DNA from: a virus
UHGV virus genome: UHGV-0282798
Strand: one strand, 5' to 3'
DNA length: 45,006 nt
Shown in pieces: positions 12,566 to 35,618 of the stretch (position 1 is the first letter of the stretch; the number at the start of each line of letters is the position of its first letter). The position numbers were made by a program, and so were the translations under genes. Under the pieces are notes generated by a model. The model did not search any database. It saw only the letters and a list, made by a program, of their open reading frames with translations, and was not told the DNA's origin.

Positions 12566-13066
12566 ATGTTAGACCAATTCTTAAAATTACTGGAACGTTT
12601 CGTAGTTGCACATGAACTGATTGCTGCGAACAGCGCGAAAGAACCTGTGATTGGCTCCCCGGAACATTTTGCTGAGTTTTGTAAGTTGCAGGGTGTAAGT
12701 GTAAAAGAGGCTTTAACTAAACCTTCAAAAGAAATCCCGGTCGAAGGTGAAGACATCGTCGACACTAAACCGGCAGAAGAAGAGAAGCCAAAACGTAAGA
12801 CGCGTAAAGCTAAAGTAGAGGAACCAACGCCAGAACCGGAAGAAGAGAAAGAAGAAGTCGATTACCAGTCTCTTCGTGACCAGATTCAGGCTATCGATGA
12901 TGCAATTAACGAAGGTCCGAGTGATGCTGCGTGTGACGATTCTGATGAACTGCTGGAAGAGTTCACCGGTAAGAAGATGAAGATTGCCGCGATTAAAGAC
13001 GAAGACCTGGCCGAGTACCTGGAACGCCTCACGGCAATCAAGAACAAGTATTTCGAAGAAGAATAA
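12566..13066 (+). CDS. Acidic hypothetical protein
   Basis: ORF track; RBS AGGAGAGAAACAA nearly identical to that of the preceding small ORF; Glu/Asp-rich with a K/R patch. Confidence 0.5.
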   Translation: MLDQFLKLLERFVVAHELIAANSAKEPVIGSPEHFAEFCKLQGVSVKEALTKPSKEIPVEGEDIVDTKPAEEEKPKRKTRKAKVEEPTPEPEEEKEEVDYQSLRDQIQAIDDAINEGPSDAACDDSDELLEEFTGKKMKIAAIKDEDLAEYLERLTAIKNKYFEEE

Positions 13067-13121
13067 CTACTTAACTTATGGTGCCATCATACGTGAGGGC
13101 ACCAAACTGAGGGTCGGAATT

Positions 13122-13610
13122 ATGGATTGGCATGAGATATTCGACTATGACCGCGCCACAGGAAAATTGTATTGGAAAATACAGCCATCTCATGCGGTTA
13201 AGCCGGGTGAAGAGGCTGGAAGTGTGGGAACTGAGGGTTATGTAGATGTTGGTTTTGCAGGCCGTTTATATAAGGCGCATCGCATTATATGGGATATGAT
13301 GAACACTGACGATAAACTAACGCCGAACCACCAAATAGACCACATAAACCATATCAGAACGGATAATAGGATAGAAAATTTAAGGAAGGTACACCACTGT
13401 GACAACGCCAAAAATCAAAGCATGCGCGTAGACAATACCTCAGGTGTCGCGGGAGTATACTTCGACCGAACTAATAGAAAATGGAGGGCCCGCATTAGGG
13501 CGAGTGGCACGACCATTTGTTTGGGGAGATACGATAGTTTAGAAGAAGCCGCATGCGCACGCCAGAAAGCAGAAGAGATTTACGGGTTTCACAAAAATCA
13601 TGGGGGGTAA
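13122..13610 (+). CDS. HNH-AP2 homing-type endonuclease
   Basis: HQIDHINHIRTDNRIENLR (HNH) followed by AGVYFDRTNRKWRARIRASGTTICLGRYDSLEEAACARQKAEEIYG (AP2). ORF track starts at 12984; ATG 13122 (MDWHEIF) with RBS avoids overlap. Confidence 0.75.
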   Translation: MDWHEIFDYDRATGKLYWKIQPSHAVKPGEEAGSVGTEGYVDVGFAGRLYKAHRIIWDMMNTDDKLTPNHQIDHINHIRTDNRIENLRKVHHCDNAKNQSMRVDNTSGVAGVYFDRTNRKWRARIRASGTTICLGRYDSLEEAACARQKAEEIYGFHKNHGG

Positions 13611-23412: not shown

Positions 23413-25980
23413 TTAACTAAAACCGTTGCTGAATCCGTCGGAGAAACCGCGACCGAAAGGCGCGACGCCGTCGTATTTGTAGAAGTCCGCTTCGTAGTTA
23501 ATCCCGGTAATCTTAACTGTTCTGTCGTCTCCCGGGTCAACTGTAGAAACAAGAATCATCTGAGCATTATGCCTTGCTTCGTTGCCGAATGAAAACTCAG
23601 TTTTTAGCGCACTATTACCCGCGTAAATTGCTTCTTGAGGTGCGGATAACATAATCACCTCGCGATCGTGACTTCCAGGAACCACCGCGACGCTCTGAAC
23701 TCCGCCATCTCGCCTCTTAAGAATCAATGAGTGGTCGTCTCCGGGGGTAAACGTAACAGGTTGTGATAGCGTCAGCGCAAGCCCATTAATGGCAACAACA
23801 TAGCCATCTTGCGGGGCCATACGCGAACCTTTTACCACACTTACCGCACGCCCAGGCATTGCAAAAACCCCTTCTTCTGTCGCCGTGAATGATACTGTTA
23901 CCTTCTTCAACAGGTTTTTCTGGTATCGACGATATGCGGACCAGTACGCCTGTCGATAATTACGGATACCTTTAGAGTCATACGTTTCTGTGTTGACTCC
24001 ACCTTCCGCTGGAATACTAATAGTCTCTTTGACGTTAGTATCTGGGTCGATGTAGGAGAATTTGAGACTATCGTATACCTGAGCGTCGTTAAACGTGCGT
24101 GTCCACTTCTCCGTAGCGGTAGTTTTGCTGCGGTGGGTGAACACCATTTCAGGCCCCATTCGAGGGCGTTCGAAATCCAGAAGAATATCGGCACCTCTAC
24201 GGTATGGGGTGCAGAAAATTGCTTCCGCTATCGTAGTTACTATGTCCTGCATAGTAGTTTTGTAATCATCGAATGTGTAGCAGAATTGCCCTGCCTCGGC
24301 GTTCCCGAAATAACTTTCAATCTCAGCCTGCGTGGCCAGCAACTTATCCATGTTAGCCGTGGTGAGATTGAGGTTTCCTACAACTGGGTCGCGAGCAAGC
24401 CGTATCAGGGACTGCACTGCCTGTGTGTTAGGTGTCATAACTGTATCAAAAACACCGTTGCCCAGGTACTTGTACACCATCTCGGTAGCTACCATGCGCA
24501 ATTGAGGCTGTTTAACCTCTGCGGCGCGGGGTGTCTGCTTACGCGCAGAATGTACCGTTGTACGGTTGCCATAGTGAGGGGTGCGGTCTATTGACTGCCC
24601 GTAGAGGTTTACATAAGTAACTTCGTCGACAACTGTACCTTCGAAATCAAGGTCCAGATTGGTAACACGGCGCATACGAACCCGAACTTTAGACGGCGAG
24701 GGGAGGTCGGCGTATATTGTAACGCCAGTGTAATCCTGGCTACGGCCTGTAACTGTTCCTTGTTTTGTGTACACCGGGCCATACGGTTGCCCGTCAACAT
24801 CCAGTAACTGGTACTGCATTTCAACGACAACAGATGCCCGTGTTTTATTCTCACCGTTGTCCTTGTACATGCCGTTTGCCGCAGCAACGTTAGTTACCAC
24901 TCGTTCTACGTTTATGCGGTTGATATAAGCCCAGTCTGTAAGGCTGGCGGTATAGGTATCCTGCGGCCCGATCAGATGTTTACCCTGAACGTTATCTATG
25001 GGGTACGCCGTTGTCCCTATTAAATTCCATTGTGACTGGTTGTTAGAAATATCAACTACCAGGGTAGTGTCACTAACAGAAATAACTGGGTAATAACCGG
25101 AAAGATTTACCTCACCGCCAAGGCCGCCAGGAGTAGTATCTGCAAACACTCCATCAAAGAATGCTATTTGACCAACAGAAAGAACATCATAGAATCCTGC
25201 GTCCGGTCCGGTAACTGTGCCAGTTGAGCCAGAGCGCTGTACGGTGAACAACCCAACATTAACCTGTACGTCATTCTGGGCTTTAAGTACTACGCCATCT
25301 ACTTCGTTTGACGCTACGGTGATGTAAAGCCCCTGATCGATAGGGTCTCCGATGCGTAATTGTGGTGTGCTAGTGTTATTTGGCGACGTGAACGGTGTGT
25401 ATATTTCTACCGAAGTGCCCGTGATTTCTTGTACTCGCGTATCACCGTCTGTTACATCTTCCGGTTTAATATCCAGATACCCACGCCCGGCGTCATAGTA
25501 GCCGTATTCAACGACCGTACCAGATGCATTGAACACCTTGTAAGTGGTCATAAGGTCGTTAGGGATGGTCTGAACCCTGCCGCAGATGTCATAAGTTCGC
25601 TCGTATGGGCGAGCTTTGTTGTTGCGGTCGGTCAGACTATTGTTAGGGGAGTCGGCTTGCTGGTTAGCAAGATTGTTAGACACGCCCTTCGTTGACGGTG
25701 TGAGTAATTTAGCTAGCGGTTTAAGGATGATGCTGAATACTTTCATCACGCCTTTGACTACCCCGCCGCCAGCACCTTCCAGGACGTGAAAAACGGCATC
25801 CTGTTTTAATGCGTCAAAATCTTCTGTTACGTCGTTATCCTCTCCTATTTCTTCGAGGAAAACGCGAAACGGCACACCATCAGGGATATGGTTTACGACG
25901 AAATTCAGCGGCGAGTCGTTATGCCGTTTTTGCGTAAACGTCCCGTCTTCGTTACGGGTGTAGTGGATGACTATCGCCAA
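23413..25980 (-). CDS. Tail tip / central fibre protein (gpJ-like, putative)
   Basis: 855 aa, position after the K/L-like genes; call is by size and position only. Confidence 0.5.
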   Translation of the reverse strand: MAIVIHYTRNEDGTFTQKRHNDSPLNFVVNHIPDGVPFRVFLEEIGEDNDVTEDFDALKQDAVFHVLEGAGGGVVKGVMKVFSIILKPLAKLLTPSTKGVSNNLANQQADSPNNSLTDRNNKARPYERTYDICGRVQTIPNDLMTTYKVFNASGTVVEYGYYDAGRGYLDIKPEDVTDGDTRVQEITGTSVEIYTPFTSPNNTSTPQLRIGDPIDQGLYITVASNEVDGVVLKAQNDVQVNVGLFTVQRSGSTGTVTGPDAGFYDVLSVGQIAFFDGVFADTTPGGLGGEVNLSGYYPVISVSDTTLVVDISNNQSQWNLIGTTAYPIDNVQGKHLIGPQDTYTASLTDWAYINRINVERVVTNVAAANGMYKDNGENKTRASVVVEMQYQLLDVDGQPYGPVYTKQGTVTGRSQDYTGVTIYADLPSPSKVRVRMRRVTNLDLDFEGTVVDEVTYVNLYGQSIDRTPHYGNRTTVHSARKQTPRAAEVKQPQLRMVATEMVYKYLGNGVFDTVMTPNTQAVQSLIRLARDPVVGNLNLTTANMDKLLATQAEIESYFGNAEAGQFCYTFDDYKTTMQDIVTTIAEAIFCTPYRRGADILLDFERPRMGPEMVFTHRSKTTATEKWTRTFNDAQVYDSLKFSYIDPDTNVKETISIPAEGGVNTETYDSKGIRNYRQAYWSAYRRYQKNLLKKVTVSFTATEEGVFAMPGRAVSVVKGSRMAPQDGYVVAINGLALTLSQPVTFTPGDDHSLILKRRDGGVQSVAVVPGSHDREVIMLSAPQEAIYAGNSALKTEFSFGNEARHNAQMILVSTVDPGDDRTVKITGINYEADFYKYDGVAPFGRGFSDGFSNGFS

Positions 25981-26336
25981 AATTCAATCTCCTGATATGT
26001 GTCGCGTAAATCGTCCAGACGGTCGAGACGCACTTGTCTGGACGCTAACTCGCAGTGGCTTACCATTCCATCATAATACACGCCCGCATGCCACACTACA
26101 CGCCCTCGGTGATAAGTACCAAGCAACACGGCGTCATAATTCTGCGGACTGGCAGCGCGTTCCAGACCTTTCGGGTCGGAGTGCCCTGCATCAAACGCCG
26201 AGTCTATCGCAGTTGGTGATGTTACGTCGAAAGCTGGCGTAGATAGCCCAGCATCACCGCGCACCCTGCGTACGTGATGCCAACAATTGTAGCGACGAAA
26301 GTCATAAGGGAGGCCCGTATAGGCAGTGATACTCAT
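25971..26336 (-). CDS. NlpC/P60-like tail assembly protein (gpK-like)
   Basis: YDFRRYNCWHHV has the Cys-Trp-His signature of NlpC/P60 peptidases. Track ORF extends to 26489; ATG 26334-26336 (MSITAYTG) overlaps the upstream stop. Confidence 0.5.
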   Translation of the reverse strand: MSITAYTGLPYDFRRYNCWHHVRRVRGDAGLSTPAFDVTSPTAIDSAFDAGHSDPKGLERAASPQNYDAVLLGTYHRGRVVWHAGVYYDGMVSHCELASRQVRLDRLDDLRDTYQEIEFWR

Positions 26337-26848
26337 GACAAAAGTACCCCACGCAACAGCGGTATTTCTTCCGGTGTCATCAGGATTCCTGTCTGCCGTT
26401 GGTTGAGCATAGGCGTTCCGGTCTCTGCGGTGAACACGCCTTTTTCTTGCGTCAACGTCTGCAACTCGTACACTACAGGGCCGTCGCACGGGTACGACAG
26501 GTCTGTGCTTACGTATCTTCGAAATATGAATTTAGGTAACTCTGTATTGCTATACGGGATGCGGTCCATCTCTTCATCGAGAATGTTAAGAACATCTGGC
26601 AGTGAGAACGAGGCCGTCTGGTCCATATCATTATTGTTCGCGGCGTTCTTGGCGTCCATCGGCGTGGCCTCGAACGTAACAGTTTCGCCAGTTTCAAGAG
26701 TGGCGGTAAGGTCAGACGTCCCGCGCACAAGCAACCACCGCTTCGAGAGAAGCGGGTGCGTTATTTCAAGAGTAATGTAATCCAGTTCGCCGTCTGGGTT
26801 TGATGCCAGCTTACGGCGATAGGCTGCTTCTACTGATTCCTGACTCAT
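26333..26848 (-). CDS. Minor tail protein (gpL-like, putative)
   Basis: Position between M-like and K-like genes; no decisive motif. Confidence 0.4.
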   Translation of the reverse strand: MSQESVEAAYRRKLASNPDGELDYITLEITHPLLSKRWLLVRGTSDLTATLETGETVTFEATPMDAKNAANNNDMDQTASFSLPDVLNILDEEMDRIPYSNTELPKFIFRRYVSTDLSYPCDGPVVYELQTLTQEKGVFTAETGTPMLNQRQTGILMTPEEIPLLRGVLLS

Positions 26849-26851
26849 AAG

Positions 26852-28237
26852 TTAACCGTCCACATTAAAATCAATACGGGTTATATATTTACTACCCCAC
26901 GCAGAATCCGCTTGGGGGATGGTGGCGTAGTTATCTACTGCGGGCACGTTTACGGTAGAACCATCAGAGTATGTAATGTCGATGCTTGTCGCACCATTCA
27001 TGGCTACTTTTGCCGATGCCATAGGTCTTGCTACCGGTGATGCATCGGTTACTATTGGCGATGTGGAGAACTCGCCTTTTTCTATTTGAGGCGAGGACAC
27101 GATGATGCCACTGACACCATCGCCAGCAAACGATGATACGGTCGCTGTTTGGTAAACCCCTACCGCCAGATTTAAGCCGCTGAACCCACCCGACGGACCA
27201 GTTACTGTTTCAGTAGCCCGATACCATCCGCCTCCTATAGATGTTATTGTGGAGTATGCTTCGCCATCTACAATGGCCCCGGATGTAAGGTTTACTATCG
27301 CGGAAGAGATGTGCGTAGTGTCCTGATTTGCCGCGCGGAGTCTGGCGAAATCATACCCATTCGCCTTAAAAAATACACTGAATGTGTATTTTTCACCTTC
27401 TAAAATCTGTGCGGAAACGGTCTGGTTAACTGTGTGAACACCTGTGTCCCCATTTGGGGTAATAGCGAAAGATGAAGCCAAGCTCCCGTCGTAACTGGAT
27501 GTTGTCCTCTGCTTGAACCACGCCGAGTTGCCGAAATTATTGCTAAAAGTAAGTATGTTTTCCGCTGCGGTTTCAGGGGGGACGCGCCCGGCGGCAACAC
27601 CACCGATAAACGTAAGAGGCCATTCATTGGTGGTGGACTGCACAAGATTGCCGTTCCGGTTGATATAATAAACCCGCGGCCCGTCATACACAACGCGGCT
27701 ATCAAGAGTCGACGCCAGAAGGTTAATCGGTGGGTATCCTGCAGGCCCTTCATTGCTCCAGATGCGCGGGAACGTCGTTTCGTAGTTAGCATATATTTTC
27801 ATGAAACTGCCCAGACGATCCCCGTAACAGCCGTACAAATCCGGAAGATTCTTCGTAAGGCATGTATCTTCCTGAATAGCTGTTCTCTCTGCCGTGGCGG
27901 TGAACGTAATTACCCAGTTCTTACCGTCGTCGGTGCTATCACTAATCGTCGATGTGATGAGTATCTGGTGGTCCTCGATGCCCATACCTGTATCATGCGG
28001 CATGATAAACGAGGACGCACCGCCGTCGATGTTGTTCAGGAAGCTATAAAACGCCTGGCGCCCGAGAGAAGACACTACTAGCGTTACGCTAATTGGTACC
28101 GGTTCAAAGTACGTGTCTCTCCCCTGGCGGGGTAAGCCGCCCTGAACCTCTGTGCGCCAGATATTACTCCCCCTTGTCTGAGAGTACCCCTTCGACACTA
28201 TAGGCTTTAAACTTGTTGGAAATCTTAAAGAAGACAT
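26852..28237 (-). CDS. Minor/distal tail protein with long C-terminal extension
   Basis: 461 aa; first gene after the tape measure; Gly/Ser/Thr/Asn-rich C-terminal ~300 aa suggests a carbohydrate-binding or fibre-like module. Confidence 0.45.
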   Translation of the reverse strand: MSSLRFPTSLKPIVSKGYSQTRGSNIWRTEVQGGLPRQGRDTYFEPVPISVTLVVSSLGRQAFYSFLNNIDGGASSFIMPHDTGMGIEDHQILITSTISDSTDDGKNWVITFTATAERTAIQEDTCLTKNLPDLYGCYGDRLGSFMKIYANYETTFPRIWSNEGPAGYPPINLLASTLDSRVVYDGPRVYYINRNGNLVQSTTNEWPLTFIGGVAAGRVPPETAAENILTFSNNFGNSAWFKQRTTSSYDGSLASSFAITPNGDTGVHTVNQTVSAQILEGEKYTFSVFFKANGYDFARLRAANQDTTHISSAIVNLTSGAIVDGEAYSTITSIGGGWYRATETVTGPSGGFSGLNLAVGVYQTATVSSFAGDGVSGIIVSSPQIEKGEFSTSPIVTDASPVARPMASAKVAMNGATSIDITYSDGSTVNVPAVDNYATIPQADSAWGSKYITRIDFNVDG

Positions 28238-28272
28238 AGTAAGATACTCCTATTATTTTAGGAGATACTAAC

Positions 28273-28923
28273 ATGATACCCACAGAAAAAGTAGCTAAGA
28301 GTATGTGGCTGCGCGCGAATTATCCCGCGAACAAAAGCAGCAAAACTAGGCGTGCAACTATATGCGATTTTGGCATAAATGATGCCGATTATGTGGTTAG
28401 TCCTAAGATAAACGGCAACCGTGAGCCGTGTCCTGCGTACGCTACGTGGCGAGGGATGATCCAACGTTGCATAGACGTCGAGTATAAAAACAAAAGACCT
28501 GCATACAAGGATGTAACTGTGTGGCATGGGTGGCAAAGGTTTATGTCCTTCCGTAGATGGTGGCTTTGTAATTACGTAGAAGGATGGGAACTAGATAAGG
28601 ACTTATTCTCTGGTATTAATAAGATATACAGCCCCACCACTTGCATTTTTATTCCGCAATGGTTGAATGTTTTTCTACTGGAAAGGAAAAATAGTGGGTC
28701 ACCTACAGGTGTTTTTTATGAAGAATCAAGAGGTAAATTTAAAGCCTCAGTGAAATATGAGAAAAAAACTATTAATCTAGGACGTTTTGAAACTCAGGAA
28801 GAAGCGCTAGATGCCTACATCGCTGAAAAGATAAGGATAGCAGAATCAAGAAGATGCGAGATAGAGGCGATAAGAGAAGGTATGTTCGCCCGCGTTATCG
28901 CCTTGATAAAAGAGGGGCGTTAG
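28273..28923 (+). CDS. AP2-domain protein, putative free-standing endonuclease with atypical N-terminal domain
   Basis: C-terminal AP2-like GVFYEESRGKFKASVKYEKKTINLGRFETQEEALDAYIAEK; Trp-rich N-terminal domain (YATWRGMIQRC ... VWHGWQRF) with no HNH motif visible; opposite strand to flanking tail genes. Confidence 0.5.
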   Translation: MIPTEKVAKSMWLRANYPANKSSKTRRATICDFGINDADYVVSPKINGNREPCPAYATWRGMIQRCIDVEYKNKRPAYKDVTVWHGWQRFMSFRRWWLCNYVEGWELDKDLFSGINKIYSPTTCIFIPQWLNVFLLERKNSGSPTGVFYEESRGKFKASVKYEKKTINLGRFETQEEALDAYIAEKIRIAESRRCEIEAIREGMFARVIALIKEGR

Positions 28924-28932
28924 CCCCTACCT

Positions 28933-31257
28933 TTAATACCCCGGCTGACCGCGAGTAGAGCGGCGAGCTTTAGAAATCGGTGAGTTGTTATCCTGTAACT
29001 GCGACGCTACTGTTTCACTGATTATAATACGTAAACGCCCTTCGTCATCACGTTCTGTTACAGCAGAATCTACGCGCCCCGTAGTGTTATTAACTATAGT
29101 GACGTTATCACCGCCGGACTGGCCACCGTTTTGCCCCATAATCTCTTTCATCTGCTGCGCAGTTCGTACGCGCGATGCGCCAGCAGGCATGATAACTTCC
29201 GGTTTGCCGCGTTCTGCGATGGTAGACATCTGCCCCGCTGATAACTGACCGCCCTGCTCACGTGCCGAGCGGATTTTGGCGATATTAGCCAGCCCCGCGG
29301 CAACGGCAGTACCTGCGGCAACCGGTGCCAGGAATGGGCCGACAACCGGTATCGCTGCGGTAGACTTATATGCTTCGATAGCCGAGGTGTATGTTGCGAT
29401 AGTGGCCTGGGCAATAGCAAACGCTTTATACGCGGTGGACGCCTCGCCAAATGCCGTTTTAGCATTAGCTGCCATGTCACCGAAAGAACTACCTAAAGCC
29501 TCGGCGCGCTTCGTAGCATACTGCTCATTGATAGCGTTAAGCGCCGCCTGATACTGTTCCTCGTTAATAAGCCCCTGTTCTCGATACTTATCAGCGACAG
29601 CCAGTTTCTGCTGTTCCTGGATGTCGAGGAGCTCAAGCTCAGCGGCGTTCTGCCCCATAATCTGGGCCATGAAGTCATCGCCTTTCTGCTGCTTTTCCTG
29701 CTGCTCTTTTCTTTTCTTATCCAGTTCTTCCTGTCTGGCCTGCTCGGCTGTGAGCATAATTTGAGTTTTGGCGTTTTCGTATTGCTGCTGGCTTATCGTT
29801 CCTGCGCGGTTGAACTCTTCAAGTTTTGCCAGTTTCTGCTCTTCGGCCGCCGTGATGCGAGAAATTTCATCTCCGGTTGTACGGTCAACCGTAGCAAGGA
29901 AATCTTCCGCGGCTTTCTTCTGGCGTTGTGCCGCCGTTTCTTCACGTTTGGCCTGCGCCGCCAGACGTTTCTCGTTCGATTTAGCCTCGCGGTCTGCCTT
30001 CTCTTTCTCGGTCTTGTCAATGCGGGCGATGTCTTGCTGTGCTTCCGTGTCACGAGCAGCATTATACGCGGCGATCTGTTCTTTGGTTACAGCTTCACGT
30101 TTAGCAAACGCCTGCTTATCCAGTTCAGCTTGCGCCCGGATGCGCTCACGGTCGCTTAAGATGGCGATTTGCTGATTCTTGACGATAGCTTCGTTCTGCT
30201 CCTGGAACCTCTGCGTGGTTGAGTTAACGTTACGACCGAGATTCTTTTGGGCTTCCGCCGCTGCGTTTGCGGACTTCTCCGCGTTCTCCAGTGCTGTGGC
30301 GTTCTTGTTGGCGTTGTCTGTCAGGCGGATAAGTTCCGGATTCAACTGTTTTGTGTTACCGAGCCAGTCGGTAAACACATCGGCGATGCGGCGGGCATTC
30401 TCGGCGGTTGGCTCTTTGTTAAACGCGCTCTGCGCCGCTATCATCTCCAGCGCCTGGTCACGGTTAACCCCGAACTTACTGCTAAGCTCCGCTATATTCT
30501 GCGCCAGCATGTTGACGCCTACGATGTTACCCTCGTAAGTGCCGCCAAGTTTTTCTAACGTGTCGCCTACATCCGCACCCTTAGAGACCAATGCATCGTA
30601 CTGGCTAATAGCGGATGCCGTGGAGGCTTTCCATGTCTCCCATGACTCGGCGTCCTCGCGGACAGCTTTAGCTGTTTGCTGCGCGATAAGGTCTGCGTTA
30701 GCCTTAGCCAGAGCAAGCTGAGTCTCCGCCGCTTCTCTGCTGATTTGGGTAAGCTGGATAAGGCCGTCTGTCAGTTCGAGGGAGCCAGATGCCGTTTGCT
30801 GGAAGGTGTCTTTTAACTGTTTCTGCGCGGCTTCCAGGTCTTTTGAACTGCCTTCTGCTTCGGTTAGCGATTTGTACAGGACACCGCCGATTGCCGAAGC
30901 AAGAGCAATCACAGCCCCGAGCACCGCGCCACCAGGTCCGAAAGCACCAGCAAGCTGCGAACCTTGTTGCCCGATTGCTACGAATGCAGACGTGCCGGAT
31001 TGCAACTGGACTACCATGTCCTGCACCTGGAAGCCAACCTGCCCTGCAGCGTTACGGAACTTAGCGAAACCGTCGGAGGCCGCTTTAGACGTAGCGGAGT
31101 TTACTTTATTAACGTCCGGCGTTAGTTTGTTTACGGATGTGTCCGCCCGGTCTGCGGATGCCGCCATAGCGTCAAGCTGTTTAGCGGCCGCATCAGCGCC
31201 TTCTGTTTTTACTCTGGCAATTAGGGAAGCCGTATCAGCCATCTTCTCTGCCCTCAA
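28933..31257 (-). CDS. Tail tape measure protein
   Basis: 774 aa, Ala/Gln/Glu/Lys-rich coiled-coil composition; between chaperones and distal tail genes. Track start is TTG; ATG at 31240-31242 with GAGGG RBS. Confidence 0.8.
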   Translation of the reverse strand: MRAEKMADTASLIARVKTEGADAAAKQLDAMAASADRADTSVNKLTPDVNKVNSATSKAASDGFAKFRNAAGQVGFQVQDMVVQLQSGTSAFVAIGQQGSQLAGAFGPGGAVLGAVIALASAIGGVLYKSLTEAEGSSKDLEAAQKQLKDTFQQTASGSLELTDGLIQLTQISREAAETQLALAKANADLIAQQTAKAVREDAESWETWKASTASAISQYDALVSKGADVGDTLEKLGGTYEGNIVGVNMLAQNIAELSSKFGVNRDQALEMIAAQSAFNKEPTAENARRIADVFTDWLGNTKQLNPELIRLTDNANKNATALENAEKSANAAAEAQKNLGRNVNSTTQRFQEQNEAIVKNQQIAILSDRERIRAQAELDKQAFAKREAVTKEQIAAYNAARDTEAQQDIARIDKTEKEKADREAKSNEKRLAAQAKREETAAQRQKKAAEDFLATVDRTTGDEISRITAAEEQKLAKLEEFNRAGTISQQQYENAKTQIMLTAEQARQEELDKKRKEQQEKQQKGDDFMAQIMGQNAAELELLDIQEQQKLAVADKYREQGLINEEQYQAALNAINEQYATKRAEALGSSFGDMAANAKTAFGEASTAYKAFAIAQATIATYTSAIEAYKSTAAIPVVGPFLAPVAAGTAVAAGLANIAKIRSAREQGGQLSAGQMSTIAERGKPEVIMPAGASRVRTAQQMKEIMGQNGGQSGGDNVTIVNNTTGRVDSAVTERDDEGRLRIIISETVASQLQDNNSPISKARRSTRGQPGY

Positions 31258-31507
31258 ATATTCCGTCTAAGCCCATGATAACCTCGGCTTCGAACAAACT
31301 TATGCCGTAACCGGCGACATCACGAAACGCTACCAAATCTTGCCATTTGAGCGCATCGCGCGGGATTATAACGATAGTATCATCTGTTTCGCGCTGTAGG
31401 AATTTAATGGCACGGTATTTCTCGAACACGTCGATAAGAGAAACGGGGCATTCTGGCCCCGTCGCTTCTTTCATCTGCGGTTCTTTAATCACACCCATTG
31501 CGATCAA
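31235..31507 (-). CDS. Tail assembly protein (gpT-position ORF)
   Basis: 90 aa between chaperone and tape measure; track start is TTG; its frame is -1 relative to 31597-32013 but is closed by a stop at 31544-31546. Confidence 0.35.
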   Translation of the reverse strand: MIAMGVIKEPQMKEATGPECPVSLIDVFEKYRAIKFLQRETDDTIVIIPRDALKWQDLVAFRDVAGYGISLFEAEVIMGLDGIFEGREDG

Positions 31508-32179: not shown

Positions 32180-32371
32180 ATGTCAAGTTTACCAGTTTCC
32201 TTAATTCTGTTTGCACTTCTCGCTTATTTCGCGCCTTTCCTGGTTGCGTACTTCCGTAATCATAAAGCGAAGTTGGCAATATTCATGGCTAACCTGTTTC
32301 TTGGCTGGGTTCTGCTGCCGTGGGTATTTATTTTAATATGGGCTTGCAACTCGAACGTGAAAGAGAAGTAG
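32180..32371 (+). CDS. Imm-like small membrane protein (superinfection-immunity-type, putative)
   Basis: AYFAPFLVAYFRNHKAKLAIFMANLFLGWVLLPWVFILIWA fits the pattern I recall for the superinfection-immunity family. Track ORF 32165; ATG 32180 has a GGAGGG RBS. Confidence 0.45.
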   Translation: MSSLPVSLILFALLAYFAPFLVAYFRNHKAKLAIFMANLFLGWVLLPWVFILIWACNSNVKEK

Positions 32372-32409
32372 GCTACTATAAGACAAATCCTAAACACGAG
32401 GAAGTAAGC

Positions 32410-33540
32410 ATGGCCCATAAGAAAATAACCGACGAACAGTTACAGGAAGAATTGAACGCCGGAATGAAGAATGCAGACATCGCCCGTAAATACGGCATCT
32501 CAGACCGCGTAATTCGTATCCGTAAAGCGAAGCTGGCTAAGAAAGGCGTAGGCCACGGGCGTGACGTTAGTCACCTTGTCCCGGACGGCTACAAAATTAA
32601 AGGGACCTCGTCACTGGTGGACGAGTTCGGCAACACTAAACTTCAATGGGTTAAGACCGACACCGATGCCGAACGTCAGGTCGAGTTGATGAAAGCCGTA
32701 ATCGAAGGCATGAAGTCGGAGATTACTCCAGTTGCACCAGTTAAAGCCGTTCGCGCCAAACGTGACGATAAACTACTCAATCTTTACACGGTATCTGATT
32801 TCCATCTCGGTATGCTGGCCTGGGCCGACGAGAGCGGCGACGACTGGGATATGAAGATTGCGGAAGACCTGTTCTCTCGCTGGTTCGATGCTGCGTTCCA
32901 GAAAGCGCCAGATGCAGGAACAGGAGTTATTAACCTGCTTGGCGACCTTGCGCACTTCGATAGTCTGGATGCCGTTACACCTGCAAGCGGCCATGTTCTT
33001 GACGCGGACACGCGCTATCAGAAACTGGTCCGCTACATGATTCGTATGGTTCGCCGTGTTATTGATATGGCGCTGGTTAAGCATAAAAATGTTCGCTTGC
33101 TTATCGTGCAAGGGAACCACGACGAAAGTGGAATGATTTGGTTAGCTGAGATGTTCAGTACGCTGTACGACAATGAGCCGCGTGTGTTTGTCGATACTTC
33201 ACCAGATGTTTACAAGATGGTGCAACACGGCAAAACGACGCTGTTCTTTACACACGGGCATAAATGCCGGTTTGAGGTTGTCGAACCAATTATGATAGCT
33301 AAGTTCAGAAAAGCATTTGGAGAAAGCGAGTACAGTTACGCGCATGTAGGGCATCTCCACCATCAAAAGATTGTAGAAAGTAGGAATATGGTAGTGGAGC
33401 AACATCGCACTCTCGCGGCGAAAGATGCATATGCTTCCCGCGGCGGGTGGATGTCTAAGAGGTCCGCTAATGTCATAACCTATAGTTCAGAGTTCGGGGA
33501 AGTAGGTAGGCTTTCAATCTCACCGGAGATGCTAAGATGA
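32410..33540 (+). CDS. HTH domain fused to calcineurin-like metallophosphoesterase
   Basis: N-terminal HTH (MKNADIARKYGISDRVIRIRKAKL); phosphoesterase motifs SDFHLG, LGDLAHFD, VQGNHDE, FTHGH, HVGHLHH. Track ORF 32320; ATG 32410 (MAHKKITDEQ) preceded by GAGGAAG. Confidence 0.65.
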   Translation: MAHKKITDEQLQEELNAGMKNADIARKYGISDRVIRIRKAKLAKKGVGHGRDVSHLVPDGYKIKGTSSLVDEFGNTKLQWVKTDTDAERQVELMKAVIEGMKSEITPVAPVKAVRAKRDDKLLNLYTVSDFHLGMLAWADESGDDWDMKIAEDLFSRWFDAAFQKAPDAGTGVINLLGDLAHFDSLDAVTPASGHVLDADTRYQKLVRYMIRMVRRVIDMALVKHKNVRLLIVQGNHDESGMIWLAEMFSTLYDNEPRVFVDTSPDVYKMVQHGKTTLFFTHGHKCRFEVVEPIMIAKFRKAFGESEYSYAHVGHLHHQKIVESRNMVVEQHRTLAAKDAYASRGGWMSKRSANVITYSSEFGEVGRLSISPEMLR

Positions 33541-34007
33541 AGTACCTTGATGTTTCAAAACAATTTAAATACTGCCCTGATACGGGGCAGGTTACCAGGA
33601 TATCTACTGGTGCTGAGGTTGGTACGGTTGGTGTAAGAGGATATCTGTGCTGCGGTATGGGTGGTAAAACAGTATATGTCCACCGCGTAGCATGGTGTCT
33701 TTATAATAAATGTGACTTAGACAGGAAAACACAAATAGACCACATAAACCATAACAGGCTAGACAATAGAATAGAAAATCTACGCGCCACCGACAATACA
33801 GGGAACAGTAAAAATAAAACTATGAGAAAGATAAATAAATCCGGGGCTACAGGTGTAAGTTTCCACAAAGCCGCGGGTAAGTGGCGCGCGTTTATAAAAG
33901 TTAACTACAAACAAGTGCATTTAGGGCTTTACGACGATTTTGATGTAGCGGTTGCCGCGCGTAAAGCCGCTGAGAGTAAATACGGTTTTCATGAAAACCA
34001 TGAGTAG
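33537..34007 (+). CDS. HNH-AP2 homing-type endonuclease
   Basis: HRVAWCLYN ... QIDHINHNRLDNRIENLR (HNH) and GVSFHKAAGKWRAFIKVNYKQVHLGLYDDFDVAVAARKAAESKYG (AP2); paralog of 13122-13610. Confidence 0.75.
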   Translation: MKYLDVSKQFKYCPDTGQVTRISTGAEVGTVGVRGYLCCGMGGKTVYVHRVAWCLYNKCDLDRKTQIDHINHNRLDNRIENLRATDNTGNSKNKTMRKINKSGATGVSFHKAAGKWRAFIKVNYKQVHLGLYDDFDVAVAARKAAESKYGFHENHE

Positions 34008-34421: not shown

Positions 34422-34448
34422 AAGGCCCCGAAAGGGGCCTTAGTTTTA
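34422..34448. terminator. Terminator hairpin closing the plus-strand island
   Basis: Stem AAGGCCCC (34422-34429) / GGGGCCTT (34434-34441), loop gaaa, then AGTTTTA; sits between the island and the convergent major tail gene. Confidence 0.6.
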
Positions 34449-35618
34449 TGCGTAGGTGATACGCTGGATAACAATAGACGACTGGTACTGATTGCCGGTA
34501 GCCTGGCCTTCGATGGACTGAGTGATTGACTCTGGTCCGCCAATCTCTGGCGTAACCGCCGTAAGTTCTGCGCGTTTCAGGCTGAAAGACATAGCCCCGT
34601 TTACCCCCGCCAGAATAGAGTTAATCTCTACCTGCTGTTCGTTGATAAACTTCTGAATCATCGCCATGTCGTACAGCTTACCGGAGATAGAGAAGGTGTT
34701 AGCCGCGCGACCACGTTCCACGAACGCAACGCTACTGTTGCCGAGTTCGAACTGCGCAGAAGCACCGTTGTCGTTTGTGATGGTCAGAGTATCGCAACGC
34801 AACGGCGTAGAACCGTCGAACACGGACACATCTACGGATGAGAACGGCTCATCGGTAAACGTCACCTGAGAGAAATCAGAACCTGCTGGCGGTGCAGAAA
34901 GAATCTCCTGACTTAGACCGATGAACGGGAAGCTGCCTGTCACCATCGCGTTTACGGCCTGTTCAATGGTGAATCCGGAGATTTCCACGCCTTTGGTCAA
35001 CATGTACGCGTCCGGGTTCCCGCACTGTCCTTTGAACCATGTCAGGATGGAGAACGTCTTACATGCGTTACTGGTTTCCAGTTTGTCGCCGGTTTTAGCG
35101 TCGGTGGTTACAGTCTCTGCTGTCAGCGTGTGCTGAATGCCCGCACCCGTAACTACAAGAGCAGAAACCGCGGTCACGATAAACGGTTTTGCGTTGTCGC
35201 CGGTTAAGTCGGTGAACGCAATCAGGTCGCCAACTTCTACACCGTCAGTAATGAAGCTACCGGCAGCGCGGGTGAATGTTTTACCTGCTGGGGCGACCGT
35301 AATTTCAGCACCCGTAATCTCCACCCCATCCTGCCACGTAGAAGTCATCGCGCCCGCGAGGAAATCATCCTGGCTACGCGAGCTAAGTTCGATGGCGTAC
35401 TCCCCGCTAACCTGCTTATTACCAGTGCGGATGGATGTAGTTTCACGGCTGCCGTCGAGTTCGTTGGAAGTCAGCGCATCGCGGGTTACGGCTGGAACGC
35501 CGCCCGTGTTACGCAACGGCGACCAGACCGGGTTAGTCGGTGTTACGCCCGGGGTATTTTCCACCACATAGAATTGCGCGGTATTCGCGCCCTTAAAAGG
35601 AGTTGTAGCCATATTCAC
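34446..35618 (-). CDS. Major tail protein (putative)
   Basis: 390 aa, Thr/Ser/Gly/Ala-rich; follows tail-completion genes. Positional call. Confidence 0.55.
   Translation of the reverse strand: MNMATTPFKGANTAQFYVVENTPGVTPTNPVWSPLRNTGGVPAVTRDALTSNELDGSRETTSIRTGNKQVSGEYAIELSSRSQDDFLAGAMTSTWQDGVEITGAEITVAPAGKTFTRAAGSFITDGVEVGDLIAFTDLTGDNAKPFIVTAVSALVVTGAGIQHTLTAETVTTDAKTGDKLETSNACKTFSILTWFKGQCGNPDAYMLTKGVEISGFTIEQAVNAMVTGSFPFIGLSQEILSAPPAGSDFSQVTFTDEPFSSVDVSVFDGSTPLRCDTLTITNDNGASAQFELGNSSVAFVERGRAANTFSISGKLYDMAMIQKFINEQQVEINSILAGVNGAMSFSLKRAELTAVTPEIGGPESITQSIEGQATGNQYQSSIVIQRITYA

What the first reader, a model, noticed from the sequence alone, without database searches (positions are those of the whole stretch)
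28273..28923. AP2-domain protein with an unusual Trp-rich N-terminal domain inserted in opposite orientation between tail genes
This 216-aa plus-strand gene interrupts the minus-strand tail module between the distal tail gene and the tape measure. A 6-bp inverted repeat (CTCCTA / TAGGAG, 28247-28264) supplies Shine-Dalgarno sequences for both this gene and the divergent distal tail gene. The C-terminus is an AP2 DNA-binding domain like those of the two HNH-AP2 endonucleases, but the N-terminal domain shows no HNH motif. It may be a homing endonuclease of a different catalytic family.
Basis: partly seen in the sequence, partly recalled or inferred. Interest (0 to 1): 0.5.

Follow-up and report, generated by a model that had tools for sequence, protein, structure and literature searches.

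The report
Mobile AP2-type homing endonuclease gene cassette
This is a selfish, free-standing homing-endonuclease-type gene of the already described "IPA-HNH" family, with a histidine-less HNH-like domain plus an AP2 DNA-binding domain, that has inserted between two tail genes of an E. coli Kagunavirus phage; it is ordinary for phage genomes, though no member's nuclease chemistry has been tested.

Summary
A 216-aa plus-strand ORF (28273-28923) lies between the tape-measure gene and the next minor tail gene of a Kagunavirus. It has back-to-back Shine-Dalgarno sequences and a C-terminal AP2 domain.

It is not a new catalytic family. The protein is a clear homologue of Vibrio phage ICP1 Gp59 (hhalign E=3.7e-28), a founder of the "IPA-HNH" homing endonuclease genes of Barth et al. 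2023.

The N-terminal domain:
- has no Pfam model;
- shows no detectable profile similarity to HNH_3;
- has no conserved His.

Mobility is well supported:
- At least 35 related phage records have an uninterrupted empty site; only 5 phages in the database carry the gene.
- The window's flanks match the gene-less phage SZH-1 (84-100%), while the 728-bp cassette matches XY1-type phages (about 91%) whose flanks are only 53-71% identical.
- dN/dS is about 0.1.

The cassette brings its own new 5' end and ribosome-binding site for the downstream tail gene. I rate it a new member of a known kind, of modest interest. Nuclease activity is inferred, not shown.

The parts
28205..28932 (.). Whole inserted cassette (728 nt). 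In gene-less phage SZH-1 it replaces 36 nt: the first 4 codons of the tail gene plus the 24-nt spacer.
   Evidence: Multiple alignment and binned identity. To the left of 28205 and to the right of 28932 the window matches gene-less SZH-1 (84-92% and 98-100%) and not XY1 (60-69% and 53-64%). Inside, it matches XY1 at 84-96%. G+C is 37-44% inside against 47-59% outside.
28205..28237 (-). Replacement 5' end of the downstream minor tail (Dit-position) gene. Codons 1-11 encode MSSLRFPTSLK, in place of MSLR in gene-less phages (a net gain of 7 codons).
   Evidence: all 8 gene-carrying loci have MSSL[RK]FP[TA]SL[KR]P, and both gene-less loci have MSLRP. The DNA is unusually conserved even in the most divergent loci.
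28216..28245 (+). Weak sigma-70-like promoter candidate for the endonuclease gene (TTGGAA-N18-TAAGAT), overlapping the start of the tail gene.
   Evidence: Read by eye. The same position reads TTGGAA-N18-TATAAT in L010 and CTGGAA-N18-TATAAT in L011. It falls below the threshold of the scan. Inferred, not shown.
28247..28252 (-). Shine-Dalgarno sequence (TAGGAG on the minus strand) for the tail gene, 9 nt before its ATG.
28259..28264 (+). Shine-Dalgarno sequence (TAGGAG) for the endonuclease gene, 8 nt before its ATG.
28273..28923 (+). IPA-HNH-type homing endonuclease gene (216 aa plus stop codon).
   Evidence: phrog_953, E=6.5e-65; ICP1 Gp59; dN/dS about 0.1.
28273..28698 (+). N-terminal Trp-rich IPA domain (aa 1-142). 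It is helical with a beta-beta-alpha unit (beta 105-108, beta 125-128, helix 129-140). Invariant residues are D108, K109, D110, Y119, C124 and N132.
28699..28848 (+). AP2 DNA-binding domain (aa 143-192): a three-stranded sheet plus a helix.
28913..28928 (.). G+C-rich hairpin with the TAG stop codon of the gene in its loop, lying between the convergent ends of the endonuclease gene and the tape measure gene. On the minus strand it is followed by CTTTTAT, which is terminator-like.
   Evidence: It is kept, with compensatory changes, in L008, L010 and L011. Its function was not tested.
28933..31257 (-). Tape measure protein gene (right flank, not part of the cassette).
26852..28204 (-). Remainder of the minor tail (Dit-position) gene (left flank, backbone DNA).

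Best explanation
The feature is a free-standing homing-endonuclease gene cassette of the IPA-HNH family (ICP1-like phage AP2-associated HNH-like).

Proposed way of working:
1. During mixed infection, the 216-aa protein binds the uninterrupted TMP-stop/tail-gene-start junction of a gene-less Kagunavirus. Binding is through its C-terminal AP2 domain.
2. Its N-terminal beta-beta-alpha domain cuts or nicks the DNA there.
3. Repair from the gene-carrying genome copies the 728-bp cassette into the break.

The cassette is self-contained. It carries:
- a promoter-like element;
- back-to-back ribosome-binding sites;
- a rewritten 5' end for the essential tail gene, which it separates from the tape measure gene. 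This keeps that gene translated and at the same time destroys the presumed target site, giving self-immunity;
- a hairpin at its 3' end.

The active site is proposed to be a His-less His-Me finger. D108, D110 and N132 would hold the metal. K109 and/or the loop tyrosine Y119 would replace the missing histidine, as tyrosine does in PacI.

Shown here: family membership, domain folds, the sporadic single-site distribution, lateral transfer and purifying selection.
Inferred: DNA cleavage, the target site, the catalytic residues, the promoter and the role of the hairpin.
For: Family:
- BLASTP against ICP1 Gp59 gives 36% identity over 114 aa, E=2e-20.
- hhalign of the family profile against Gp59 gives probability 99.8%, E=3.7e-28, and includes the QLDKDI..GNKVYCP..C..VP..IN block.
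- Barth et al. define this class as putative HEGs.
- The protein matches phrog_953 at E=6.5e-65.

AP2 domain.

Mobility:
- 116 related phage records match the region.
- Only 7 records (5 phages) carry the gene.
- At least 35 records have the contiguous empty junction.
- All carriers have the gene at the same site.
- The gene is 91% nt identical to that of the XY1 group, while the flanks are 65-70% identical. The window's flanks match gene-less SZH-1 at 79-89% overall and 98-100% right next to the junction.
- G+C drops inside the cassette.
- The same family occupies two other sites in Kagunaviruses.

Functional constraint:
- dN/dS is 0.06-0.19, and is lowest in the N-terminal domain.
- D108, K109 and D110 are 98% conserved, Y119 99.6% and N132 98.5%, in 273 domain copies.

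Fold:
- The models are confident and show a beta-beta-alpha unit.
- Three of the 15 Foldseek hits, none of them significant, are HNH nucleases, including the top-ranked one.
- PacI lacks the catalytic His and uses an omega-loop Tyr (PMC5714182).
- GenBank annotators report HHpred similarity to I-HmuI for a 36%-identical paralogue.
Against: - No member of the family has been shown to cut DNA. Barth et al. classify it bioinformatically only.
- There is no conserved histidine. His-Me finger groups that lack both the His and a substitute Tyr are thought to be inactive.
- My profile-profile tests found no significant similarity to HNH_3. Only the AP2 part aligns. The N-terminal part gives E=0.1-0.3 and scores no better than column shuffles.
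- I could not check whether Y119 superposes on the PacI tyrosine.
- Homologues 56-83% identical sit at the same site with comparably diverged flanks. This also fits long vertical residence.
- No convincing promoter was found.
Confidence: 0.65

Rival explanations
1. The protein is a domesticated, non-catalytic DNA-binding protein. The His-less N-terminal domain and the AP2 domain only bind DNA. The protein would then act as a repressor or regulator, for example of the tail operon it interrupts or of host or competitor genes. The cassette would spread by ordinary homologous recombination in the mosaic tail region.
For: - There is no catalytic His in 273 copies.
- His-Me groups lacking both His and Tyr are considered inactive.
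- There is precedent for HEG-derived DNA-binding modules acting as repressors: CapR, and the CasPR CapR+AP2 anti-CRISPRs.
- Strong purifying selection fits any function.
- Diverged homologues stay at one site.
Against: - The gene is absent from more than 90% of relatives, which manage without it.
- The cassette boundaries are sharp and identical in different backbones. This is more typical of targeted insertion than of general recombination.
- The invariant D-K-D/Y/N cluster sits on a beta-beta-alpha unit and looks like an active site.
- The family has colonised several unrelated intergenic sites.
Confidence: 0.2
2. The protein is an endonuclease of a truly separate catalytic family, unrelated to HNH/His-Me fingers. 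On this view the beta-beta-alpha resemblance is coincidental.
For: - There is no Pfam hit for any of 31 N-terminal domains.
- hhalign against an HNH_3 profile is negative.
- No solved structure matches by sequence.
Against: - The only structural neighbours with any signal are HNH enzymes.
- Two independent HHsearch/HHpred reports link the family to HNH/I-HmuI.
- The greedy hhalign path pairs D108-K109 with D68-H69 and N116-K117-I118 with N77-R78-I79 of HNH_3, although this is not significant.
Confidence: 0.08
3. The gene is a decaying, inactive remnant of a homing endonuclease gene that merely hitch-hikes.
For: - Homing endonuclease genes commonly degenerate after fixation.
- ICP1 gp115/116 is a frameshifted family member.
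Against: - The ORFs are intact (214-217 aa) in all 8 loci, with dN/dS of 0.06-0.19.
- All family-invariant residues are present.
- The cassette was recently transferred into a new backbone.
Confidence: 0.05

Closest known systems
IPA-HNH homing endonuclease genes of Vibrio phage ICP1 (Gp59, Gp115/116, Gp209; Barth, Dunham & Seed 2023, PMC10448857)
   Same: - The N-terminal domain is homologous, including the LDKD...NK.Y.P..C...N block.
- Both have a C-terminal AP2 domain.
- Both are invisible to Pfam HNH_3.
- Both are free-standing genes next to essential phage genes.
   Different: - Identity is only 36% over the core.
- ICP1 Gp59 has about 85 extra N-terminal residues.
- The phage lineage is different (E. 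coli Kagunavirus siphophage), as is the insertion site (the tape measure / next tail gene junction).
- Here a natural filled/empty pair with sharp cassette borders is available.
Canonical HNH_3-AP2 homing endonucleases (Magnani et al. 2004, as cited; the window's own genes at 12984-13610 and 33537-34007)
   Same: Nuclease-type N-terminal domain plus C-terminal AP2; the AP2 parts align (probability 96.9%). Both are small free-standing phage genes.
   Different: - The canonical genes have the D-H...N...N motif and pass the Pfam HNH_3 cut-off.
- The finding has D-K...N...N, no conserved His, and an extra Trp-rich helical region.
- It has no detectable profile similarity in the N-terminal part.
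PacI restriction endonuclease (PDB 3M7K/3LDY; His-Me finger group 20 of Jablonska et al. 2017, PMC5714182)
   Same: - It too lacks the catalytic His.
- PacI uses a Tyr in the loop between the two strands. The finding has a 99.6%-conserved Tyr (Y119) in that loop.
   Different: - The match is weak (14% identity), and there is no similarity by HMMER.
- PacI has no AP2 domain. It is a restriction enzyme, not a mobile gene.
- The equivalence of the two tyrosines was not checked.
Free-standing homing endonuclease genes of T4-like phages (Seg/Mob type; background knowledge, also discussed in PMC10448857)
   Same: Both are intergenic selfish genes between essential genes. Both show sporadic distribution among relatives and replacement of a short stretch of flanking sequence along with the gene.
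   Different: The nuclease families differ (GIY-YIG, and canonical HNH with zinc finger). For those genes cleavage and homing are shown experimentally; here they are inferred.
CasPR / CapR-type DNA-binding proteins derived from homing endonuclease modules (bioRxiv 10.64898/2026.02.23.707548)
   Same: An AP2 domain in a small phage protein. They show that such proteins can act purely as sequence-specific repressors.
   Different: CasPRs pair AP2 with a Cys-rich CapR zinc-finger-like domain and occur in Bacillota prophage acr loci. The finding has the IPA domain, not CapR, although I did not run a CapR profile.

Membership tests
IPA-HNH homing endonuclease genes (Barth et al. 2023) | N-terminal domain homologous to that of ICP1 Gp59/Gp209 | tested here: met
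   BLASTP E=2e-20, 36% identity over 114 aa. hhalign of the family profile against Gp59 gives probability 99.8%, E=3.7e-28 over 145 columns.
IPA-HNH homing endonuclease genes (Barth et al. 2023) | C-terminal AP2 DNA-binding domain | tested here: met
   [not shown]
IPA-HNH homing endonuclease genes (Barth et al. 2023) | N-terminal domain too divergent for the Pfam HNH_3 profile | tested here: met
   No HNH family hit at E<=1 for the protein, nor at E<=10 for 31 N-terminal domains.
IPA-HNH homing endonuclease genes (Barth et al. 2023) | Free-standing gene near essential phage genes | tested here: met
   The gene lies between the tape measure gene and a minor tail gene.
HNH / His-Me finger (beta-beta-alpha-metal) nuclease superfamily | Beta-hairpin followed by a helix (beta-beta-alpha core) | tested here: met
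   DSSP on two confident models gives strands 105-108 and 125-128 and a helix at 129-135/140. This is secondary-structure level only; I had no access to the coordinates.
HNH / His-Me finger (beta-beta-alpha-metal) nuclease superfamily | Catalytic His at the end of the first strand | tested here: not met
   The position is Lys (K109) in 268 of 273 domain copies, and no column is His-rich. A known exception exists: PacI uses a loop Tyr, and Y119 is a candidate equivalent that I did not verify.
HNH / His-Me finger (beta-beta-alpha-metal) nuclease superfamily | Metal-ligand Asn/His in the helix and Asp before the catalytic residue | tested here: inconclusive
   N132 (98.5%) lies in the helix and D108 (98%) precedes K109. 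The spacing resembles D68-H69...N90 of HNH_3. The geometry was not checked.
HNH / His-Me finger (beta-beta-alpha-metal) nuclease superfamily | Significant sequence or profile similarity to a recognised HNH family | tested here: not met
   hhalign against an HNH_3 profile gives E=0.1-0.3, probability below 1%, and scores no better than shuffles. HMMER against PDB finds nothing. Others report HHsearch/HHpred hits, which I could not reproduce with the tools available.
HNH / His-Me finger (beta-beta-alpha-metal) nuclease superfamily | Structural similarity to solved HNH nucleases | tested here: inconclusive
   [not shown]
Homing endonuclease gene (functional definition) | Sporadic presence at one fixed site, with intact empty sites in close relatives | tested here: met
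Homing endonuclease gene (functional definition) | Evidence of lateral movement independent of the flanks | tested here: met
   The gene is 91% identical to XY1 while the flanks are 65-70% identical. The flanks match gene-less SZH-1.
Homing endonuclease gene (functional definition) | Site-specific cleavage of the empty allele and super-Mendelian inheritance | not testable with these tools
   This needs biochemistry and phage crosses.

The most novel reading that the evidence does not exclude
The IPA domain is an active His-less His-Me finger nuclease that works like PacI. The invariant loop tyrosine Y119, perhaps with K109, would replace the catalytic histidine. D108, D110 and N132 would hold the metal. 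That would make this very large, Pfam-less family (about 25,000 50%-identity clusters) the first homing endonuclease class with that chemistry. The window/SZH-1 pair would provide a ready-made target site to prove it.
Probability: 0.3. Interest if true: 0.55.

Novelty: new member of a known kind. Interest (0 to 1): 0.3.

Why it matters
In itself this is routine: one more selfish endonuclease gene in a phage tail module, from a family named in 2023.

Its use is practical:
- The window and phage SZH-1 form a clean filled/empty pair whose junction-adjacent DNA is nearly identical (84-92% to the left, 98-100% to the right). This narrows the presumed target to the short replaced junction (36 nt plus its borders).
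- It therefore offers a direct way to test whether this abundant, histidine-less, uncharacterised domain family really cuts DNA, and with which residues.
- It also shows how such a cassette keeps an essential downstream gene expressed, by bringing a new start region and ribosome-binding site with it.
- For annotation: such genes are labelled 'HNH endonuclease' by PHROG transfer, although the defining histidine is absent.

Tried and rejected
- Pfam and NCBIfam on the protein and on 31 N-terminal domains gave only a sub-threshold AP2 hit.
- HMMER against PDB sequences, with the single sequence and with the profile, gave only chance-level hits: MYLIP at E=1.2 and deoxycytidine kinase at E=0.02 over a Trp-rich helix. 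I rejected these as noise.
- hhalign of the family against an HNH_3-AP2 profile was run on the whole proteins, on the N-terminal parts, on the beta-beta-alpha segment with 200 column shuffles, and on enlarged alignments. Only the AP2 part aligns.
- The AFDB Foldseek library was unavailable.
- I considered a PD-(D/E)XK reading of 'ELDK' and rejected it. There is no (D/E)-x-K spacing, and the predicted fold is helical plus a hairpin.
- I considered CapR/zinc-finger identity and judged it unlikely. The Cys positions of the family consensus (GCxVC) are not kept in the window protein. No CapR profile was run.
- Longer family members were scanned for fused domains. Only AP2 was found, plus one TPR-like stretch.
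- The promoter scan found no plus-strand sigma-70 site at the 9/12 threshold upstream of the gene.
- No paralogue of the IPA domain exists elsewhere in the window.

Full report
**What is there**

The window is a Kagunavirus (Guernseyvirinae) genome of an E. coli siphophage. Megablast of 26000-31500 finds 116 related phage records, with best identity about 93%.

- ORF 28273..28923 (+, 216 aa) is real.
- It is flanked by the tape measure gene 28933..31257 (-) (phrog_1538, E=8.7e-196).
- On the other side is the gene that follows the tape measure gene in relatives, 26852..28237 (-). This is phrog_384 'virion structural protein' plus a C-terminal phrog_11600 module. Its Dit identity rests on position only.
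- CTCCTA (28247-28252) and TAGGAG (28259-28264) lie 9 and 8 nt from the two divergent ATGs.
- The window also holds two canonical HNH_3-AP2 genes, at about 12984-13610 and 33537-34007.
- G+C falls to 37-44% inside the gene, against 47-59% around it.

**Family**

- Pfam sees only a sub-threshold AP2 domain (22.6 bits, residues 145-184). NCBIfam sees nothing.
- PHROGs gives phrog_953 'HNH endonuclease', E=6.5e-65, over residues 20-191.
- A search of 5.8 billion proteins gives 262 homologues, almost none with any Pfam annotation.
- A profile of the N-terminal 142 residues finds 24,764 representatives of 50%-identity clusters at E<=1e-3. The domain is therefore very common yet has no Pfam model.

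The literature search led to Barth, Dunham & Seed 2023 (PMC10448857). They named 'IPA-HNH' homing endonuclease genes after ICP1 gp59, gp115/116 and gp209. These have an N-terminal domain too divergent for Pfam HNH_3 but linked to HNH by HHsearch, plus a C-terminal AP2 domain.

The window protein is a clear homologue of ICP1 Gp59:
- BLASTP gives 36% identity over 114 aa, E=2e-20.
- The family profile against Gp59 gives probability 99.8%, E=3.7e-28.

So the gene belongs to a described family. That paper offers no biochemistry for the family.

**Domains**

AlphaFold2 with a 47-sequence alignment gives a confident model (pLDDT 93.5).

C-terminal part:
- It is a three-stranded sheet plus a helix.
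- It aligns to the AP2 part of the window's own HNH_3-AP2 family (probability 96.9%).

N-terminal part (separate model, pLDDT 89.8):
- It is helical with a beta-beta-alpha unit: strands 105-108 and 125-128, and a helix from 129.
- In 273 domain copies, D108, K109 and D110 are 98% conserved, N116 and K117 91%, Y119 99.6%, C124 99% and N132 98.5%. W59, W87, F93 and W96 are about 100% conserved.
- No column is rich in His.

**Is it HNH?**

My own tests are mostly negative or weak.

- hhalign against an HNH_3 profile aligns only the AP2 part.
- The N-terminal parts give E=0.1-0.3.
- The beta-beta-alpha segment scores no better than column-shuffled controls.
- The greedy alignment does pair D108-K109 with D68-H69, and N116-K117-I118 with N77-R78-I79. 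This is what the eye suggests, but it is not significant.
- Foldseek finds nothing significant. Rank 1 (Cas8-HNH), rank 7 (type I-F HNH Cascade) and rank 15 (colicin E9) are HNH proteins.

Two points from other sources bear on this:
- GenBank annotators of phage fFiEco02 note HHpred similarity to the I-HmuI HNH motif for a 36%-identical paralogue.
- PacI is the known His-Me finger that lacks the catalytic histidine and uses a tyrosine in the loop between the strands (Jablonska et al. 2017, PMC5714182). The family here has an invariant Tyr (Y119) in exactly that loop.

My reading: this is probably a very divergent, His-less His-Me finger. That is not proven, and the canonical defining residue is absent.

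**Mobility**

Relatives without the gene have the tape measure stop codon, a 24-nt spacer and the tail gene ATG. Examples are SZH-1 and AV104. At least 35 phage records have this junction uninterrupted.

Only 7 records (5 phages: XY1, vB_VIPECOTH07, SHAK7693, fEg-Eco19, and partly Esher4) carry a gene at least 90% identical. All located copies are at the same site; the partial Esher4 copy runs off the start of its record. Metagenomic homologues of 83%, 60% and 56% identity are also at this site in Kagunavirus-like contigs.

The borders are sharp:

| Region | Window vs SZH-1 (gene-less) | Window vs XY1 (gene-carrying) |
|---|---|---|
| Left of 28205 | 84-92% | 60-69% |
| 28205-28932 (cassette) | absent in SZH-1 | 84-96% |
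| Right of 28932 | 98-100% | 53-64% |

Overall, the gene is 91% nt identical to the XY1 group while the flanks are 65-70% identical. The cassette has therefore moved into an SZH-1-like backbone.

- The ORF is intact in all 8 loci.
- dN/dS is 0.06-0.19, and is lowest in the N-terminal domain.
- The same family also sits between the tail tube and metallophosphoesterase genes in fFiEco02, and between two other tail genes in contig L011.

**Anatomy of the cassette**

- It replaces codons 1-4 of the tail gene (MSLR) with 11 codons (MSSLRFPTSLK). All 8 gene-carrying loci have the long form and both gene-less loci the short form.
- A 35-37-nt divergent spacer with an SD on each strand follows.
- The stretch over the tail gene start is unusually conserved. 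It reads TTGGAA-N18-TAAGAT here, TTGGAA-N18-TATAAT in L010 and CTGGAA-N18-TATAAT in L011. This is a candidate promoter for the gene, although it falls below the scan threshold.
- The TAG stop codon sits in the loop of a G+C-rich hairpin (28913-28928). The hairpin is kept, with compensatory changes, in L008, L010 and L011. On the minus strand it is followed by a T-rich run just after the tape measure stop codon.
- XY1-type loci carry an additional hairpin there.

**Mechanism proposed**

Because the window's flanks are SZH-1-like right up to the borders, any target that lay wholly in a flank would still be present in the window's own genome. The target is therefore most likely the short replaced junction in gene-less genomes (36 nt: tail gene codons 1-4 plus the spacer) together with its immediate borders. 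This is inference.

The protein would bind there through AP2, cut through the beta-beta-alpha domain, and be copied in by repair. The rewritten tail gene start would both destroy the site and restore translation of the tail gene, which is now 695 nt away from the tape measure gene.

**Rivals**

- A non-catalytic DNA-binding regulator. There is precedent in CapR and CasPR, and His-less His-Me groups can be inactive.
- An unrelated new nuclease fold.
- A decaying remnant, which the selection data contradict.

**Verdict**

It is a new member of a known kind, and interest is modest. The useful residue is a clean filled/empty pair for the first biochemical test of this abundant His-less domain.

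Noticed in passing
window 33537-34007 (+); locus L013 2471-3103: The slot between the metallophosphoesterase gene (32320-33540) and the tail tube gene (34446-35618, -) holds a canonical HNH_3-AP2 gene in the window. In phage fFiEco02 the same slot holds an IPA-type homologue, 36% identical to the finding. This looks like an endonuclease-gene hot spot where different classes replace each other.
   Followed up: partly
L011 2133-2759 (+): A metagenomic Kagunavirus contig that carries the finding's homologue at the TMP junction has a second IPA-type gene (hhalign E=1.2e-41 against the family). It is inserted in opposite orientation between two other minor tail genes.
   Followed up: partly
window 28913-28928; L008, L010, L011 near the gene's stop codon; L003 4655-4690: A hairpin with the gene's TAG stop codon in its loop is conserved, with compensatory changes. 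On the minus strand it is terminator-like, directly after the tape measure stop codon. It is unclear how tail genes downstream are transcribed past it. XY1-type loci have an extra GGCCC/GGGCC hairpin there.
   Followed up: partly
window 26852-28237 (-) compared with L001 1846-2319, L004 2465-2965, L008 3471-3965: The tail gene after the tape measure gene occurs in a long form (454-466 aa, with a phrog_11600 C-terminal module) and a short form (157-166 aa) among close relatives. This is independent of whether the endonuclease gene is present.
   Followed up: no
N-terminal domain of the finding (window 28273-28698) and its relatives: The domain family is very large: 24,764 representatives of 50%-identity clusters at E<=1e-3 and 2,069 at E<=1e-30. 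It has no Pfam model. Some proteins carry two copies (for example P0241, 571 aa).
   Followed up: partly
L005 (OR594180.1, phage vB_EcoM_SHAK7693): The record's taxonomy line says Autographiviridae/Kayfunavirus and the name says myovirus. However, this region is collinear with, and about 98% identical in the endonuclease gene to, Kagunavirus siphophages. The record is probably mislabelled.
   Followed up: no
window 28933-31257 (-) and 23413-25980 (-): the ORF listing assigns a TTG start to both the tape measure ORF and the 855-aa tail protein ORF. This is the first in-frame start codon after a stop, so the true starts were not checked against relatives.
   Followed up: no
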